DNA of 64,000 nucleotides. It comes from a virus (lineage: Duplodnaviria > Caudoviricetes). The position numbers and the translations under genes are program-made. The stretch lies in IMG/VR virus record IMGVR_UViG_3300025437_000009, one strand, 5' to 3'. This document shows positions 6,969-55,981 of the stretch, one piece after another. The notes beneath the pieces were generated by a model. That model saw nothing but the letters and a program-made list of their open reading frames with translations, was not told the origin of the DNA and searched no databases. How positions within the stretch are numbered: position 1 is the first letter of the stretch; each line of letters starts with the position of its first letter.

Positions 6969-6997
6969 TTGACATCCGGGGTGTAGTATAGTATAAT
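6969..6997 (+). promoter_or_regulatory. sigma70-type promoter
   Basis: Perfect TTGACA-N17-TATAAT upstream of the 7022 gene and the glycan island. Confidence 0.85.
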
Positions 6998-41985: not shown

Positions 41986-42639
41986 TTACTCAACAATACC
42001 TTTTTGATATTTTTGAATTCGCACTAGATCCAGTGGTGGGTTACAGCTAGGTATACGTTGATATTTTTTATAGTATTCTAACAGTAGATCTAGTTCAGCA
42101 GTCTTACAATAACTAGGATGCATGGGCAAATATGCTTGATACACATGATCAATTTGATGCTTACCAAAGTTTTCTTTGAATGCTGTCCCACACCCATATG
42201 GACTCAATCGGGGATTTCTTACAGTACCTTTAAAGTCTGTACGACGACCCAACATACCATTGCGACTGGTAGCTCGAGATTGTCCTATATAAAACACTCC
42301 TTGGTCTAAAAAGTCAGCAGAGTCTGATGGTGCACCATCTAAAAATAATCCATAGACATAACAACCGGGGTGTGCTTTATCAAATCCCCAAGACTTATCC
42401 CATTTCTCGTCAATTTGATGCCATTGAGTAAAGGATGTTAGTGCAGGTCGAGTAAGAGTCTGTGTTTGAGTGGTGAACGCTCCTTTACCGCTGATCTCGG
42501 AACACTTGTATAAACTATAGGCTAACTGATCAACATTTGAACAATGTTTAAATACTTCGTAGAGTTGATCTTCAGTCAGCCCGTGATTACCAGATCCGGA
42601 TCTAATATTTTGTGCTAGTGCTTTGGCTAAGTCGTTCAT
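41986..42639 (-). CDS. GIY-YIG-like endonuclease
   Basis: CYVYGL...FYIGQS...GRR...AE..LL.....IP.CN pattern. Confidence 0.55.
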   Translation of the reverse strand: MNDLAKALAQNIRSGSGNHGLTEDQLYEVFKHCSNVDQLAYSLYKCSEISGKGAFTTQTQTLTRPALTSFTQWHQIDEKWDKSWGFDKAHPGCYVYGLFLDGAPSDSADFLDQGVFYIGQSRATSRNGMLGRRTDFKGTVRNPRLSPYGCGTAFKENFGKHQIDHVYQAYLPMHPSYCKTAELDLLLEYYKKYQRIPSCNPPLDLVRIQKYQKGIVE

Positions 42640-43688
42640 TTTTTACCAATATACTCGTGGCTGTAGCAAACACGATACGCATCACGAACAGTAGTGGTGC
42701 CACCATAGCCTGCCATCTTACGTGCAGTACCATCTTTGTTTAAGTAACTGCCTACTCTAGATTTCTTATTCATTGACGTAGGGCGCCATAACGGTGACTT
42801 TTCACGATGTTCACCAAATGATGGGTGTGCTGTTTTACTAAAGTAGCGTAGTCCGCGGCTTACATATATTTCAGCAATAGCATCACTAAATGCTGTGCCT
42901 ATACCCATACCTTGGAACTCGGGTAGTATTACTGTACGATGGCCACGCCAATAACTATGAATATCTCTATTAGTAGAATGTATGGCGGCATGGAAGCCGA
43001 TAGGCTTGTCACCTAACAGTAAGACATAGTAGTGAGCACTTTTGCTAATTGCAGTATCTAGATAGTGATACTTACTGAAATATCTCCAATAGTCGACACT
43101 TGTGCTTTTGATGGTGAGTGTAAGTTCTGGTCTTGTCCCCAGTCGAAGAAGTGACCTCCGATTTTCTAAGACACAGAGATCCGTGTCATATACGTAGTCT
43201 GGATCTAACCATTCTACTATGTCCCTGTGGCAACTTGCAATGTATAGTGGATCTGTTGTGCCACGGCGATCATAAAACTTACGAATACTTAATGCAAGAC
43301 TTTTAGCAGTATCTCGGTCAACAACCGACGTAAACTCATCTACTGTGGTTAGCCCTTGATCTAAACTAATAGCCATTTCAAAGCGATGGTACTCGCCATT
43401 GCTTAATGTATTGGGTGATCGGAACCAAGTAGGAATACTACGAAGTCCGCAAGCAAGCAGCAATTCTTCTCCACGCTCTGCGGTAGTAAAGTTATCAATT
43501 GTTATACGAGTATTATCTACAGTTGGTTGACGAAGTTCACCTAGGCTACGCAAGATAGTACTCTTACCACTACCACTGGTACCTACTATAAGCACAATAC
43601 CATCTGTGGGTAATTCGGGAATGGTAACAGCAGGCTCTTTATAGTCTTTGATATCGTATTTCTTTTTGATTTCTTCTAAGTAGCTCAT
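42636..43688 (-). CDS. ABC-type ATPase fused to a GNAT acetyltransferase
   Basis: GTSGSGKS, LSNGE signature, VDEFTS, ASCH; C-terminal RTVILPEFQGMGIG (acetyl-CoA-binding motif A). Confidence 0.85.
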   Translation of the reverse strand: MSYLEEIKKKYDIKDYKEPAVTIPELPTDGIVLIVGTSGSGKSTILRSLGELRQPTVDNTRITIDNFTTAERGEELLLACGLRSIPTWFRSPNTLSNGEYHRFEMAISLDQGLTTVDEFTSVVDRDTAKSLALSIRKFYDRRGTTDPLYIASCHRDIVEWLDPDYVYDTDLCVLENRRSLLRLGTRPELTLTIKSTSVDYWRYFSKYHYLDTAISKSAHYYVLLLGDKPIGFHAAIHSTNRDIHSYWRGHRTVILPEFQGMGIGTAFSDAIAEIYVSRGLRYFSKTAHPSFGEHREKSPLWRPTSMNKKSRVGSYLNKDGTARKMAGYGGTTTVRDAYRVCYSHEYIGKK

Positions 43689-44158
43689 TTTGTAAATACT
43701 CCAGAAAACTGTTCCAGCAACAAGGGCAATATCGCAGGAGCAGTATCATCAGTCAAATTACTCATCACACGATTTAAGATAGCAGGCAACACTTGAAAGT
43801 TACTGGGAACATCAGCGCCGCCCTTTGATCTAGGAACAATATGATCTAGTTGTGGTTGATGCCATTCGTCATCTACATGCTCCAGGGGAATACGATTTTC
43901 ACCCTTGCCCCAATCGTATAATCTATACACACCCTGACCATCAGTCCAACCATCGGGTGCTTTGGCATACATTTCTTCAGCTTCGGCATCAGTCCACCGA
44001 TACTTGTTTTTATAGTAACCAAAAATAGCCACACGCTTTAGATCGCGAGTCTCGCAAAACTCTCTAAAGATATCCATGGTGTAGTATGTGTTATCTTCAA
44101 AGCTAGTGCAAGGCTCACGTTTGGCTATGCTTTCGTTGATAGTTTGGTAGTTCTTCAT
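43685..44158 (-). CDS. HNH endonuclease-family protein
   Basis: QLDHIVPRSKGGADVPSNFQVLPAILN; start MKNYQT. Confidence 0.75.
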   Translation of the reverse strand: MKNYQTINESIAKREPCTSFEDNTYYTMDIFREFCETRDLKRVAIFGYYKNKYRWTDAEAEEMYAKAPDGWTDGQGVYRLYDWGKGENRIPLEHVDDEWHQPQLDHIVPRSKGGADVPSNFQVLPAILNRVMSNLTDDTAPAILPLLLEQFSGVFTK

Positions 44159-44159
44159 A

Positions 44160-45359
44160 TTAGACCAAAGGCAATGTGAACTTGTTATTACCACTTGGCC
44201 ATGCAGGTTCTGCCCATGCAATCTCTGGGGCATACTTCTTACATACTTGCCAAATACCATGAGCAATAATCATTTCCTCTGGAACACGACTGTTGCTGTA
44301 GCTAGCTGAAGTTTGATCTTTATACTCATCCTTGATGTTTTTATGCAATTGACCACCTGTGTTGGCTTTAGTCCAACGCTTTTTAAGTGCGTTCATAATA
44401 GCAAAGTCCACGGTCATGTCATCTTCTTTGAGATTTTGATATTTGAGGAATTCCATCAATCCCCATGAATTTGCAGTATGGAATTTGCTAGTACCAAACA
44501 ACTGTGCATTGATTGTGGTAGCACGAGTAAAGTAATCCTGGCCGTAGGTAATACGATACTTGATCATGTTACCAATACTAGTAAGTACTAGCGCACGACT
44601 ACCATCATCGACTTTTTCGGCTACTGTAATACCTAAATTGCCAAACAATTCGCTGAGTTCATAGCTGATTGCATCTTCTGGCTCACTAGGCATACCAGCA
44701 TCACGTGCGGCCTGTTCACGTTGTACACGAATGCGGTAACGGTCAAACTCACTGGCTACAAGGCTATGAATGTTCAGAGCCGCATACTGTGACACGTCCC
44801 AAAACTCATCGTCACTGGTAATGTAGTTGATAGGTACATCTTCAATGCCTAGAATGATACAGCCCAATGTTCGATGCTGTGCATCATTAACAAACAAGTA
44901 ACCTTTTGAGTTCATACGACCCACACCAGGCAAGACTAAACCTGGATTAAAGCGGAAGATAATATCTTCAAAAATATGACGCAGGAATACGTCACGTTGT
45001 TTTTCGGCATTCTTAACTAACTTGTCTAGTGGTTGCAAGTTATCTGCTGTGTAGTTTAGTGCTTGAGTATTAAGTTTAGTAGCCGCATCGTTAAGGCTAT
45101 CATACACTGGCAGGTCAATGCCTAGCAGTGGATTGTCTGTGCCCATTAGCACAATTTTATTTAAACAGTAGACAACAATGTCTACCAGTGTGGGCTGTTT
45201 GCCTAGTGAACGAGTATTAACATACTCTGGAATACGTTTGAGGCGGCTCTTTTGCTCGGCAAGTGAAAGGGAGTTCCAAGGTACTCGATTGGCCTTTGGG
45301 CCCAATACCTTGAATAAGTCAGCACCGAATTGTGCTGTAATTTTTGGATGATATGACAT
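44160..45359 (-). CDS. ParB/Srx-fold (DGQHR-like) protein
   Basis: QR.V...HI......F.P..V......LFVNDAQHRTLG...VP pattern. Confidence 0.6.
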   Translation of the reverse strand: MSYHPKITAQFGADLFKVLGPKANRVPWNSLSLAEQKSRLKRIPEYVNTRSLGKQPTLVDIVVYCLNKIVLMGTDNPLLGIDLPVYDSLNDAATKLNTQALNYTADNLQPLDKLVKNAEKQRDVFLRHIFEDIIFRFNPGLVLPGVGRMNSKGYLFVNDAQHRTLGCIILGIEDVPINYITSDDEFWDVSQYAALNIHSLVASEFDRYRIRVQREQAARDAGMPSEPEDAISYELSELFGNLGITVAEKVDDGSRALVLTSIGNMIKYRITYGQDYFTRATTINAQLFGTSKFHTANSWGLMEFLKYQNLKEDDMTVDFAIMNALKKRWTKANTGGQLHKNIKDEYKDQTSASYSNSRVPEEMIIAHGIWQVCKKYAPEIAWAEPAWPSGNNKFTLPLV

Positions 45360-45447
45360 TACATTTCCTTTAAGTGTGTTTTATAACAAAGTAAACGATA
45401 ACACGTTTACCTAGTTGAATCTACTTGATAACACAAGTATTAAAGTA

Positions 45448-45476
45448 ATTATAGCGTCAAAGGATTATTGTGTCAA
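45448..45476 (-). promoter_or_regulatory. sigma70-type promoter
   Basis: Perfect TTGACA-N17-TATAAT upstream of the ParB-like operon. Confidence 0.85.
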
Positions 45477-45504
45477 CCAGGCCCTAAGTTAGTGCCCACT
45501 AACC

Positions 45505-45885
45505 CTACTGCGTTAGTTCTATTGAGTCTAAATAGGCCCGCAAGTTACCCGAATGTAGAGTAAGCATCATGGCTTCTTCCTCCTCAAAGACAATTATCTT
45601 TTGCCGTTTGAGTAGATAGTAGGGACCTTTGAGATAGCGTTCAAGTTGTAGTAGGCCATGGTTAGTTAGCTCTTCGGGTAATTGAAATTCATAACTCTGT
45701 AGCTTGAGAACGGCCTTGACCATTTGAAGGCCTGCAAGACTTAGTCTTAGACTGGTATCATCTGTAGGATTTTTGAACCAACGTTTTTGCATGTCGGTTG
45801 TTTGACCAACAGGAATATCAGCCTGCGTTACAAATATTTTTGTTAGCTGACGTTGGGTGTAACGCTTAGGGGAAGATTTGCTCAC
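45505..45885 (-). CDS. Hypothetical protein
   Basis: 126 aa ORF in the operon. Confidence 0.7.
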   Translation of the reverse strand: MSKSSPKRYTQRQLTKIFVTQADIPVGQTTDMQKRWFKNPTDDTSLRLSLAGLQMVKAVLKLQSYEFQLPEELTNHGLLQLERYLKGPYYLLKRQKIIVFEEEEAMMLTLHSGNLRAYLDSIELTQ

Positions 45886-47263: not shown

Positions 47264-47446
47264 TTATTTTGCCGCAGGACGCCGGCGTTCATAGTCGGTG
47301 CGTTGTAGTTCTGTCCAGACACGATTCTTACGTTCATGATACAAATCTATAAGACCTGCTATGAACATAGTAATAAAAAATCCAAAAAATAACAACAATG
47401 CTAAAGCAAGTCCCGCAACTGGCACCCAAAAAACATCATTTATCAT
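47264..47446 (-). CDS. Small membrane protein
   Basis: Single long hydrophobic segment. Confidence 0.6.
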   Translation of the reverse strand: MINDVFWVPVAGLALALLLFFGFFITMFIAGLIDLYHERKNRVWTELQRTDYERRRPAAK

Positions 47447-48431
47447 CAGGATAACTAGCTTCTAAAAATCTAACATAACTGTCGGACTGCTCCGACATCT
47501 TGATCAAATCGTACTTGCCACAGAACTTTAAGAACTGTGCGCCTACCATTGGGCGATTAAGCGGTACTGCACCCTCGGCAATAGTTTCTGCTATCTTAAC
47601 TTTAATATCATCTGGTTGTGCAGTTAAATCAACCAGTGTTACGTTGCGATTATAGTCATCTAAAACTCTGTGCTCATCTCCGTTATGATCGGTCCAGCGT
47701 TGTAGCATTAGGTTATTCCAAGCAAAGCCTTTCGCTGTTTTGTCGTTAAATGCCTCAAGGAGTCCCACTTTATTTTTACTTCCCACTTTACGCACCCCTG
47801 GGAATGCCGAGAAAACGTTATCTGTGGGGTCGCCCCGCATACATTTTTCGAAAAGAATCCACTTAGGATCCGGAATGACTTTTGGTTCCTTAGTCTTTTT
47901 ATCGATGACTGCTTTACCTTTTTTGTCGAAAATACCTTGTATAGTATGGAGCTCATCTGAAATTCCGTTATATTGATTTACGTTTTCTGCCAGTAGTTGA
48001 TAAAAGTCTGTATCGCTTGATACAATAGTATGATGATCTTGGGGATGGCTTTGAATCCAACCTGCGATTAGATCATCAGCTTCTAAGTTAGGATGTTGCA
48101 ATACTGTACAGTTTGTTCGATTAGCAAGAAACTCTTTAAGATTATCAAAGGTTTCCCAAAACAGTCGATCTTCTTCAGCTTCTGCTTCGGTTAGAGCAGC
48201 ACGGGCAACTGCACGATTCTTTTTATAGGGTTCGTAAAAGTCTTTGCGCCAGCTACGTCCTTCTAAACAGAAAATAACGTGATCAGCTTTTTGATCTCTA
48301 AAACTCTTACTAACACTATTTAGTGTCACATGAATAGCAAATCCTAGCTTATCCCAGGTATCTGCCTGACGGTGGGCGGCGTGGCGAGCACGGAAGAATG
48401 TATTAGCGGTGTCAACAAGTAGATATCTCAT
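47436..48431 (-). CDS. rnh: RNase H / 5'-3' flap exonuclease (T4 rnh-like)
   Basis: LLVDTAN, EADDLIA, IVSSDTDFYQL, KCMRGDPTDNV; start MRYLLVD. Confidence 0.9.
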   Translation of the reverse strand: MRYLLVDTANTFFRARHAAHRQADTWDKLGFAIHVTLNSVSKSFRDQKADHVIFCLEGRSWRKDFYEPYKKNRAVARAALTEAEAEEDRLFWETFDNLKEFLANRTNCTVLQHPNLEADDLIAGWIQSHPQDHHTIVSSDTDFYQLLAENVNQYNGISDELHTIQGIFDKKGKAVIDKKTKEPKVIPDPKWILFEKCMRGDPTDNVFSAFPGVRKVGSKNKVGLLEAFNDKTAKGFAWNNLMLQRWTDHNGDEHRVLDDYNRNVTLVDLTAQPDDIKVKIAETIAEGAVPLNRPMVGAQFLKFCGKYDLIKMSEQSDSYVRFLEASYPDDK

Positions 48432-48437
48432 AACATT

Positions 48438-48466
48438 ATAGTAGCATATAATGATTATTGTGTCAA
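48438..48466 (-). promoter_or_regulatory. sigma70-type promoter
   Basis: TTGACA-N17-TACTAT; shares TTGACACAATAATC with the 45476 promoter. Confidence 0.7.
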
Positions 48467-49201
48467 GTTCTTTTGTATAAGAGTTTGATAAAGGAATTCG
48501 GCCCAAGCACAATGGGCGTCTGCACCAAAATGATAGCTGTTTGGATTAACTGTTTTGAATCCTTTTGCTAGTAACCATTCATAGTAGGTGCCACTTCGAT
48601 TGTAAGGATCGATATAACTGCCCTCCCAATCGTACTCTTGTGCTCCTAGATAGCCTAAGTTTTTAATGTGACTAAAGTCGCGGTAGGTATTAAAGAATAG
48701 ATGTGGTATTTTTCTACTGTTTAAATCTTCGTGTAGTTTCCAAATACGGTCGTGTACTTCAACTATCTTATTGTTTATTACTGAATGGTCACTTTGTTCA
48801 ATAACCCATTTTTTATAACGTTCTTTGAGTGAATTGGGCACAGTATCAGTTCCACTGGCAGTAACTTGATAGTAAGTACCTTCATAGGACCATTCTTCTC
48901 TTTCCCAGGTTGACCAACCAATTACTATATAGTCGGGTCTGTTCACGGGCATATTCTGTACACCCTGCAGATGATTCCATGTGGTCCTAAAAATACGATC
49001 GTTACTAGCAGCCGACTCTGCGTCACATTCTAAAATGGCACCCATAAGGTTAGCTAGTTCGCAACCGTAACTAGCACGTAGATTATCGGGGTGTGGTTGT
49101 CGTCCTAATGCCCAGTACAAGGGATCATCTTGGGCAAATGCATATTTGTTGACTGCCTCTGCTCCGGCAGAATGGCTATCGCCGTTTACATATAAGATCA
49201 A
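48455..49201 (-). CDS. SGNH-fold protein
   Basis: YVNGDSHSAG, ASNDRIFR, IGWSTWEREE, YHFGADAH. Confidence 0.6.
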   Translation of the reverse strand: MILYVNGDSHSAGAEAVNKYAFAQDDPLYWALGRQPHPDNLRASYGCELANLMGAILECDAESAASNDRIFRTTWNHLQGVQNMPVNRPDYIVIGWSTWEREEWSYEGTYYQVTASGTDTVPNSLKERYKKWVIEQSDHSVINNKIVEVHDRIWKLHEDLNSRKIPHLFFNTYRDFSHIKNLGYLGAQEYDWEGSYIDPYNRSGTYYEWLLAKGFKTVNPNSYHFGADAHCAWAEFLYQTLIQKNLTQ

Positions 49202-55952: not shown

Positions 55953-55981
55953 ATTATAAGGTATTTAGATCTGTGTGTCAA
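55953..55981 (-). promoter_or_regulatory. sigma70-type promoter of folE
   Basis: Perfect TTGACA-N17-TATAAT. Confidence 0.85.

What the first reader, a model, noticed from the sequence alone, without database searches (positions are those of the whole stretch)
41986..45476. Self-contained operon: ParB-like, HNH, ABC-ATPase/GNAT fusion and GIY-YIG-like
Seen: four abutting genes behind their own perfect sigma70 promoter, with a GTAAACG-N6-CGTTTAC palindrome (45391-45410) in the leader. The ABC domain has no membrane partner and is fused to an intact GNAT. Known: GNAT-fold enzymes modify phage DNA (Mu Mom); ParB/DGQHR proteins accompany DNA-modification systems (DndB, DpdB); ATPase-GNAT coupling is used by TmcA for RNA acetylation. 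Inference: an ATP-dependent nucleic-acid acetylation system paired with nucleases that cut unmodified DNA (phage-versus-phage or host-degrading restriction-modification), or an anti-defence module. This is a good candidate for an undescribed system.
Basis: partly seen in the sequence, partly recalled or inferred. Interest (0 to 1): 0.72.

Follow-up and report, generated by a model that had tools for sequence, protein, structure and literature searches.

The report
Mosaic nuclease and acyltransferase gene island

Summary
Observation confirmed. Behind a perfect TTGACA-17-TATAAT promoter lie four translationally coupled genes on the minus strand:
- a ParB/Srx-fold protein (399 aa);
- an HNH nuclease (157 aa; true start 44158);
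- an ABC-ATPase/GNAT fusion (350 aa);
- a GIY-YIG-fold protein (217 aa).

- ParB-like + HNH is an obligate pair (25/25 loci) with its own promoter and hairpin leader. It sits in at least six other genomic contexts, never near the ABC-GNAT.
- The ABC-GNAT is a conserved gene (77 viral contigs) whose upstream slot holds interchangeable cassettes: other ParB-like pairs, methyltransferases, HNH genes, a helicase.
- The GIY-YIG gene is a precise ~650-bp insertion, absent from close relatives and found alone elsewhere.

The ABC-GNAT family was already predicted to acylate DNA bases (Iyer/Aravind 2013, 2021). A real partner link exists only for short ParB_N proteins in small phages, and none is present here.

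My reading is a mosaic island. The ParB-HNH pair is a mobile, early-expressed two-part nuclease cassette. Moderately interesting. The scan flagged similar arrangements in other genomes.

The parts
45448..45476 (-). Consensus sigma-70 promoter (TTGACA-17-TATAAT) belonging to the ParB-like/HNH cassette
   Evidence: A TTGAC(A/T)-N17-TAtAaT promoter also precedes most gene-1 homologues in unrelated contexts: 12 of 18 distinct leaders by a strict pattern, and near-matches are visible in most of the others.
45422..45439 (-). Leader hairpin 1: 6-bp stem (TACTTG/CAAGTA) presenting loop TGTTAT
   Evidence: The same loop sits in different stems in homologous leaders.
45389..45412 (-).
   Evidence: 10 of 18 TG(T/A)TAT motifs in cassette leaders lie in stems of 5 bp or more, against 16 of 435 elsewhere. 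At least six different stem sequences occur.
44160..45359 (-). Long ParB/Srx-fold protein (P0001): N-terminal helical part, ParB/Srx core with NDAQHR (158-163), helical C-terminal domain
   Evidence: There is no Pfam, PHROG or NCBIfam hit. hhalign relates it to the paralogous families c9 and c22 at 99.7% and 97% probability.
43685..44158 (-). HNH (HNN-type) nuclease (P0002 residues 37-193), obligate partner of the ParB-like gene
   Evidence: It lies immediately downstream of every gene-1 homologue that has downstream sequence, 25/25.
42636..43688 (-). ABC-ATPase + GNAT fusion (P0003), a conserved gene of this phage group
   Evidence: Nucleotide homology to relatives begins exactly at its start codon and ends at its stop codon.
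41986..42639 (-). Solitary GIY-YIG-fold nuclease (P0004): N-terminal helical domain plus a C-terminal GIY-YIG core
   Evidence: It is absent from the same site in L009 and L014 and present in L003. It stands alone in three other contexts and lies near a c22 cassette in L206/L207.

Best explanation
The stretch is a mosaic of three independently inherited units in a hypervariable accessory island of an uncultured freshwater jumbo phage. They are co-transcribed here only because they were inserted next to each other.

Unit 1 (45476-43685) is a self-contained, promoter-led two-gene cassette: a long ParB/Srx-fold protein plus an HNH nuclease.
- Shown: the two genes are always together, they carry their own consensus early promoter and a hairpin leader, and they occupy many different genomic positions.
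- Inferred (about 45%): the pair works as a two-part DNA endonuclease. The ParB-like subunit would supply NTP-dependent DNA binding or targeting, and HNH would cut. The cassette would behave like a free-standing homing or competitor-exclusion nuclease that spreads or persists through phage-phage and phage-host DNA conflict.
- Inferred (weaker): the conserved-loop hairpins are an RNA-level site for autoregulation.

Unit 2 (43688-42636) is the conserved ABC-ATPase/GNAT enzyme.
- Shown: all ATPase and acyl-CoA-binding motifs are intact.
- Inferred from the family's neighbours elsewhere and from the literature: ATP-driven dimerisation couples transfer of an acyl or aminoacyl group onto nucleic acid, most likely phage DNA.

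Unit 3 (42639-41986) is a solitary GIY-YIG nuclease gene, inserted precisely between the ABC-GNAT stop and the next conserved gene.
- Inferred: a free-standing homing-type or EndoII-like nuclease.
For: Linkage of genes 1 and 2:
- Gene-1 homologues at 50-90% identity are followed directly by gene-2 homologues in 25/25 loci.
- They lie in at least six flank contexts.
- None has an ABC-GNAT or gene 4 within 5 kb.

ABC-GNAT side:
- 77 loci were retrieved, at 33-95% identity. None has a close gene 1 or any gene 2, and only one has gene 4.
- The slot between the conserved c1 gene and the ABC-GNAT holds c9/c22 ParB-like pairs, three methyltransferase families, HNH_3 genes and a helicase.

Boundaries:
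- blastn homology to relatives stops at 45488-45554 and resumes at 43688.
- It stops again at 42638-42640 and resumes at 41990 in L009/L014, which is an empty site for gene 4.

Paralogous cassettes:
- c9 is followed by c6 in 78/79 loci, but by the ABC-GNAT in only 9/79.
- c22 is followed by a c6-like gene in 8/8 loci and by the ABC-GNAT in 4/8.

Signals and active sites:
- Promoters are conserved with the cassette.
- Loop-conserved, stem-variable hairpins occur in the leaders.
- Catalytic motifs are invariant in the HNH, the GIY-YIG and the ABC-GNAT.

Gene 4:
- Homologues stand alone in other contexts.

ABC-GNAT family function:
- Published prediction of DNA base acylation (PMC7824862).
- Neighbours elsewhere include Formyl_trans_N, aspartate decarboxylase plus a CoA-transferase, and ASCH.
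Against: - All four genes are translationally coupled behind one promoter with no terminator, so they are expressed together here whatever their origin.
- Long ParB-like paralogues of three subfamilies lie beside the ABC-GNAT in 26 of 77 related loci plus this window. That is more than random placement in a ~300-kb genome would give, though shared descent and an insertion hot spot could explain it.
- Short ParB_N proteins are real neighbours of this enzyme in small phages.
- A 400-aa accessory subunit is unusual for a homing endonuclease.
- No target site, cleavage activity or mobility event has been observed.
- The loci are metagenomic fragments, so absence within 5 kb does not show absence from the genome.
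Confidence: 0.68

Rival explanations
1. The ABC-GNAT writes an acyl mark on phage DNA. The ParB-like protein targets or activates it, and the HNH and GIY-YIG nucleases destroy unmarked host or competitor DNA. The interchangeable cassettes in the slot would then be alternative restriction modules keyed to the same mark.
For: - The four genes are co-transcribed with overlapping stop/start codons.
- Short ParB_N + ABC-GNAT pairs occur in seven distant phage lineages.
- ParB-like paralogues of three subfamilies lie next to the ABC-GNAT in 26/77 related loci.
- A phage ParB is a proven activator of a DNA-modifying enzyme (PMC13229309).
Against: - P0001-type pairs are away from the ABC-GNAT in 25/25 other loci. 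For c9-type pairs the figure is 70/79.
- Many relatives with a 90-95% identical ABC-GNAT have no ParB-like gene or nuclease beside it and carry methyltransferases instead.
- P0004 is a clean presence/absence insertion.
- P0001 is not related to the short partner ParB_N at profile level.
Confidence: 0.14
2. P0001 is a DpdB/DndB-like DGQHR ATPase that serves the phage's own 7-deazaguanine DNA-modification pathway, whose genes lie 5-20 kb away. The HNH would be an associated nuclease.
For: - ParB fold with an NDxQHR motif resembling DGQHR.
- One AFDB hit is named a DGQHR domain protein, E 6e-4.
Against: - No NCBIfam or Pfam hit to DGQHR, DndB or DpdB models, even at E = 1.
- The constant neighbour is an HNH, not a transglycosylase.
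- The cassettes sit in varied contexts with no deazaguanine genes among the called neighbours.
Confidence: 0.05
3. The ABC-GNAT acts on protein or RNA rather than DNA, for example acetylating a host or phage protein or a tRNA cytidine as TmcA does. The flanking nucleases would be irrelevant to it.
For: - GNATs commonly acetylate proteins, and phage GNATs are known to modify host RNA polymerase (PMC7824862).
- The ABC domain resembles transporter- and translation-factor-type domains most closely.
- ASCH neighbours are compatible with an RNA substrate. From my own knowledge, an E. coli ASCH protein hydrolyses N4-acetylcytidine.
Against: - Recurrent pairing with ParB_N DNA-clamp-type proteins, and placement beside terminase genes or in the position that mom occupies in Mu (after the tail-fibre genes), point to DNA.
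Confidence: 0.1

Closest known systems
ABC ATPase-GNAT predicted DNA-acylation enzymes of phages (Iyer, Zhang, Burroughs, Aravind 2013; cited for Tenacibaculum phage pT24 in PMC7824862); PHROG 11143
   Same: P0003 matches the full-length profile (E 9e-80). It is 35% identical to the pT24 protein and keeps every invariant residue of both domains.
   Different: No short ParB_N partner, formyltransferase, CoA-transferase or ASCH gene lies next to it here. The biochemical activity of the family is still unknown. I could not read the 2013 paper.
Phage Mu Mom (GNAT-fold adenine modification)
   Same: Both are GNAT-fold enzymes proposed to act on DNA. In phiE255 and in Porphyromonas phages the ABC-GNAT occupies the equivalent position, after the tail-fibre genes.
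   Different: Mom has no ATPase domain. No sequence match to Mom was seen. No link to a nuclease is established here.
Phage ParB activators of thymine dioxygenases (5mYOX-associated ParB; PMC13229309)
   Same: A ParB-fold protein is encoded beside a DNA-acting enzyme as an obligate partner.
   Different: Those are short proteins (nucleotide-binding domain plus dimerisation domain) paired with a dioxygenase. P0001 is 399 aa, has extra helical domains and is paired with an HNH nuclease.
Free-standing homing endonucleases of T4-like phages (Seg GIY-YIG and Mob HNH genes) and T4 endonuclease II
   Same: Nuclease genes with presence/absence polymorphism between conserved genes of related phages. 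T4 EndoII appears among the GIY-YIG fold matches. That T4-like phages carry such homing genes is from my own knowledge.
   Different: The ParB-HNH unit is two genes with its own promoter. P0004 has its GIY-YIG domain C-terminal to a helical domain and lacks the usual NUMOD or IENR DNA-binding modules. No target site is known.
DndB / DpdB DGQHR-domain ParB-like proteins
   Same: ParB/Srx fold and a D-x-Q-H-R-type motif.
   Different: No profile match. The gene partners differ.

Membership tests
ABC ATPase-GNAT fusion family (PHROG 11143) | Full-length profile match | tested here: met
   phrog_11143 E 8.8e-80, residues 3-349. tblastn finds relatives in 91 phage records, 37 of them covering at least 80% of the protein.
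ABC ATPase-GNAT fusion family (PHROG 11143) | Intact Walker A, ABC signature, Walker B/D-loop, H-loop, and GNAT R-x-V-x-x-P-x-x-Q-G-x-G | tested here: met
   Invariant G36/S38/G39/G41/K42, S96/G98, D117/E118, V123/D124/R125, H154, R251/V253/P256/G260/G262 are all present in P0003.
ABC ATPase-GNAT fusion family (PHROG 11143) | Short ParB_N partner gene overlapping the start (seen in 7 sampled lineages) | tested here: not met
   A profile built from the three short partners finds nothing in the window or in the jumbo-phage loci. This is a frequent feature of the family, not a universal one.
ABC ATPase-GNAT fusion family (PHROG 11143) | Acylation of a DNA base | not testable with these tools
   This is a prediction from the literature only.
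ParB/Srx superfamily | ParB/Srx core fold | tested here: met
   Foldseek hits to Noc, KorB, ParB and Srx with probability 0.9-1.0 (E 5e-3 to 0.1), and to AFDB ParB/Srx clusters at E down to 9e-10.
ParB/Srx superfamily | Pfam ParB_N profile match | tested here: not met
   No Pfam hit for P0001 or for any of 31 family members.
DndB/DpdB (DGQHR domain) | DGQHR/DndB/DpdB profile match and neighbouring Dnd or DpdA genes | tested here: not met
   No NCBIfam or Pfam hit at E up to 1. The constant neighbour is an HNH.
HNH (His-Me finger) nucleases | Profile match and conserved H...N...H/N motif | tested here: inconclusive
   Pfam HNH scores 18.3 bits, below the 21.4 cut-off. Several PHROG HNH families match at E ~1e-3. 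D105-H106, N120 and N129 are invariant in 14 homologues. Atlas neighbours carry HNH.
GIY-YIG nucleases | GIY-YIG fold with GIY, YIG, Arg, Glu and Asn residues | tested here: met
   AFDB GIY-YIG clusters at E 1e-8. The top PDB rows are Hpy188I, Eco29kI and UvrC-N, though weak. There is no Pfam hit.
Restriction-modification-type system (modifier plus cognate nuclease) | Co-inheritance of the modifying enzyme and the nuclease(s) | tested here: not met
   0/77 from the ABC-GNAT side and 0/26 from the ParB-like side for this gene set.
Free-standing homing endonuclease genes | Presence/absence polymorphism at a conserved site between related genomes | tested here: met
   The cassette and P0004 are bounded exactly by breaks in homology. 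L009 and L014 have empty sites for P0004.
Free-standing homing endonuclease genes | Cleavage of the cassette-less allele and gene conversion | not testable with these tools
   This needs enzyme assays or co-infection experiments.

The most novel reading that the evidence does not exclude
The slot beside the conserved ABC-GNAT is a swap-in 'restriction' bay. Interchangeable ParB-like-plus-nuclease cassettes (P0001+HNH, c9+c6, c22+c6-like) would each read the acyl mark written by the ABC-GNAT and cut unmarked DNA. That would be an acylation-based, phage-borne restriction-modification logic with modular nucleases.
Probability: 0.12. Interest if true: 0.8.

Novelty: new variant of a known kind. 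Interest (0 to 1): 0.42.

Why it matters
- The analysis separates what is linked from what is merely adjacent, so experiments can be aimed correctly.
- The ParB-like/HNH pair (and its c9/c6 and c22/c6 cousins) is a widespread, unannotated two-gene cassette family in freshwater giant phages. It has its own promoter and a structured leader. It may be a new type of two-part mobile or conflict nuclease.
- The ABC-GNAT remains an uncharacterised enzyme predicted to modify DNA. Its neighbours in small phages are short ParB_N, a formyltransferase, aspartate decarboxylase plus a CoA-transferase, and ASCH. They give concrete hypotheses for the donor (an aminoacyl or beta-alanyl-CoA type group) and tractable cultured phages in which to test them.
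- For this window itself, the four-gene 'system' is not a discovery.

Tried and rejected
- Megablast of the stretch against 50,697 phage records gave no match.
- tblastn of P0001, P0002 and P0004 against the same records gave no match.
- PADLOC gave nothing meaningful. NCBIfam gave only generic ABC hits.
- No whole genome is held for the window.
- Iyer et al. 2013 could not be read by DOI or PMC id.
- Profile search of the P0001 family against PDB sequences gave only a weak SbnI match. The same search for c6 gave nothing useful.
- hhalign found no relation between c6 and the P0002 HNH family, or between c6 and the short ParB_N partners. I therefore do not call c6 an HNH, despite its FEHxxP...N motif.
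- Complex prediction of P0001 with P0002 returned no verdict: scores 0.46, 0.00, 0.00, controls not run. It counts neither for nor against binding.
- No short ParB_N partner was found among the conserved upstream genes c1, c2, c4 and c5.
- Literature searches for a characterised ABC-GNAT or ParB-HNH phage system found none.
Full report
**Setting.** The window comes from an uncultured jumbo phage. It encodes tail-fibre proteins, a MoxR-type ATPase and carbamoyl- and glycosyltransferases. Relatives lie on viral contigs of up to 357 kb. No whole genome is held.

**What is there.** Four genes lie on the minus strand:
- 44160-45359 (P0001, 399 aa);
- 43685-44158 (P0002, 157 aa);
- 42636-43688 (P0003, 350 aa);
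- 41986-42639 (P0004, 217 aa).

The second gene starts at the ATG at 44158, not at the upstream TTG. All homologues begin there. Genes 2/3 and 3/4 overlap by ATGA.

The promoter at 45476-45448 matches TTGACA-17-TATAAT in 12 of 12 positions. Three such sites occur in the window against 0.09 expected. No terminator-like site follows gene 4, and the next gene begins 39 nt later. The unit therefore has its own start but no evident end.

**Domain calls.**
- *P0001.* It has no Pfam, PHROG or NCBIfam hit. A model built on 31 relatives has pLDDT 91.6.
  - Residues ~99-260 match Noc, KorB, ParB and sulfiredoxin structures. They also match AFDB ParB/Srx clusters, one of them named a DGQHR domain protein.
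  - The family keeps Q121-R122, R148 and N158-D159-x-x-H162.
- *P0002.* It matches HNH weakly. H100, D105-H106, N120 and N129 are invariant in 14 homologues.
- *P0003.* It matches ABC_tran and GNAT, and phrog_11143 over its full length at E 9e-80. It keeps every residue that is invariant across 14 very diverse homologues.
- *P0004.* The model has pLDDT 91.4. Residues ~56-201 match GIY-YIG clusters at E 1e-8. The motifs GCYxYG, YIGxSR, R126, R132-R133, E182 and N200 are invariant.

**Linkage from the ABC-GNAT side.** I fetched 77 viral loci encoding P0003 relatives at 33-95% identity.
- None carries a close P0001 or any P0002. One (L003) carries P0004.
- Gene-order clustering shows conserved genes (c2-c5-c4-c1) upstream and others downstream. 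Between c1 and the ABC-GNAT lies a slot whose content changes from genome to genome.
- The slot holds ParB-like paralogues c9 or c22, usually with a 185-aa protein c6. It also holds three DNA methyltransferase families, HNH_3 genes and a ResIII helicase.
- c9 and c22 are homologous to P0001 (hhalign 99.7% and 97%). Such long ParB-like genes lie beside the ABC-GNAT in 26 of the 77 loci.

**Linkage from the ParB-like side.** P0001 has hundreds of metagenomic relatives.
- In 26 loci with homologues at 50-90% identity, a P0002 homologue follows directly in all 25 that have downstream sequence.
- None has an ABC-GNAT or P0004 within 5 kb.
- The flanks fall into at least six different contexts.
- c9 is followed by c6 in 78 of 79 loci, but by the ABC-GNAT in only 9. 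c22 is followed by a c6-like gene in 8 of 8 loci and by the ABC-GNAT in 4.
- The general rule is therefore 'long ParB-like gene plus a small partner gene' as a two-gene cassette that can sit in many places. The slot beside the ABC-GNAT is one of them.

**Boundaries.** Nucleotide homology between the window and ten relatives stops at 45488-45554, the end of c1. It resumes exactly at the ABC-GNAT start codon, 43688. It stops again at the ABC-GNAT stop codon (42638-42640). In L009 and L014 it resumes at 41990, with about 80 bp in place of P0004. The ParB-HNH cassette with its promoter and leader, and P0004, are thus discrete insertions or replacements. P0004 homologues stand alone next to radical-SAM, 2OG-oxygenase and other genes elsewhere.

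**The cassette's own signals.** A TTGAC(A/T)-17-TAtAaT promoter precedes most P0001 homologues, whatever the context. In the closer clade the leader carries one or two hairpins whose loops are TG(T/A)TAT while the stems differ (TACTTG, AGGTAAACG, TGTTGTGTG, GTGTTTG, GTTGCG, TGCTTG). Ten of 18 leader motifs sit in stems of 5 bp or more, against 16 of 435 elsewhere in the same loci. A conserved loop with changing stems argues for recognition of a folded single strand, most simply the mRNA leader, rather than a duplex operator. Who binds it is unknown. Autoregulation by a cassette protein is my inference.

I sampled 15 records from different phage lineages.
- A short (~175-200 aa) ParB_N protein overlaps the start of the ABC(-GNAT) gene in seven: Leptospira LE4, Pasteurella Pmp13, Arthrobacter EastWest, Streptococcus phiNIH1.1, Lactococcus P335, and Gordonia Jace and Shatter. 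Pfam supports this for six of them.
- Downstream neighbours are:
  - Formyl_trans_N in Burkholderia phiE255, in a Porphyromonas phage and in Gordonia Shatter, where it is annotated as a tRNA methyltransferase;
  - aspartate decarboxylase plus a family III CoA-transferase in Gordonia Jace;
  - ASCH in phiNIH1.1.
- These neighbours suggest an amino-acyl-type donor, for example beta-alanyl-CoA, with later formylation. This is inference.
- A phage ParB is a proven activator of a DNA-modifying dioxygenase on duplex DNA (PMC13229309). That gives a precedent for the short-ParB partnership.
- None of these partners is present in the window.

**Interpretation.** The four genes are expressed together here, but they were not inherited together. 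I read the stretch as a mosaic in an accessory island. The ParB-HNH cassette is most likely a two-part nuclease used in DNA conflict, either homing-like spread or attack on host or competitor DNA. I did not test that.

The main rival is that the slot holds nuclease modules keyed to the ABC-GNAT's mark. It keeps some weight, because ParB-like cassettes of three subfamilies recur at this slot and short ParB proteins are true partners of the enzyme elsewhere. Only whole-genome co-occurrence or biochemistry can settle it.

**Other attempts.** Complex prediction for P0001 and P0002 gave no verdict. Other first-stage notes of this scan describe similar cassettes beside the same enzyme in other genomes. 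I treated them as leads only.

Noticed in passing
window 45389-45439 (- strand); also L082, L098, L100, L101, L103, L105, L106 leaders: The leader hairpins keep the loop TG(T/A)TAT while the stems differ in at least six ways. 10/18 leader motifs are in stems of 5 bp or more, against 16/435 elsewhere. This looks like a structured RNA recognition element that travels with the ParB-like/HNH cassette.
   Followed up: partly
L123-L201 (c9 loci), e.g. L008:2066-3669: A second obligate pair: the c9 ParB-like protein is followed by the 185-aa protein c6 in 78/79 loci, often with an HNH_3 or another small ORF inserted between them. c6 has invariant FEH-x-x-P, D103, QALNxPT and H176, and matches no known family.
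   Followed up: partly
L094:3863-5595, L092:3893-5493, L120:1-2452, L121:2306-5071, L119:2363-4367: In small phages the ABC-GNAT sits in modules with short ParB_N upstream. Downstream lies Formyl_trans_N (three lineages), aspartate decarboxylase plus a CoA-transferase III (Gordonia Jace), or ASCH (phiNIH1.1). Gordonia Shatter gene 3 is annotated as a tRNA methyltransferase but matches Formyl_trans_N.
   Followed up: partly
L010:4856-6001, L022:5123-6001, L024:3984-5126, L006:1862-4159: In relatives, the slot upstream of the ABC-GNAT carries three different DNA methyltransferase families and a ResIII helicase instead of ParB-like cassettes. The slot is a hot spot for DNA-modification and nuclease genes.
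   Followed up: partly
window 6969-6997 (+) and 55953-55981 (-): Two further perfect TTGACA-N17-TATAAT promoters lie in the window (three in all, against 0.09 expected).
   Followed up: no
window 47436-48512 (-): A conserved upstream gene encodes a 5'-3' exonuclease (FEN/Pol I N-terminal type), Pfam E 1e-21. The four small conserved genes between it and the cassette (c2, c5, c4, c1) match no family.
   Followed up: no
L091:3854-5026 (Tenacibaculum phage pT24); L119 and L122 (Streptococcus and Lactococcus phages): In several deposited genomes the ABC and GNAT parts are annotated as two CDSs and named ABC transporter or siderophore transporter. The tblastn match to P0003 runs across both in one piece in pT24 and in two pieces in phiNIH1.1 and P335.
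   Followed up: no
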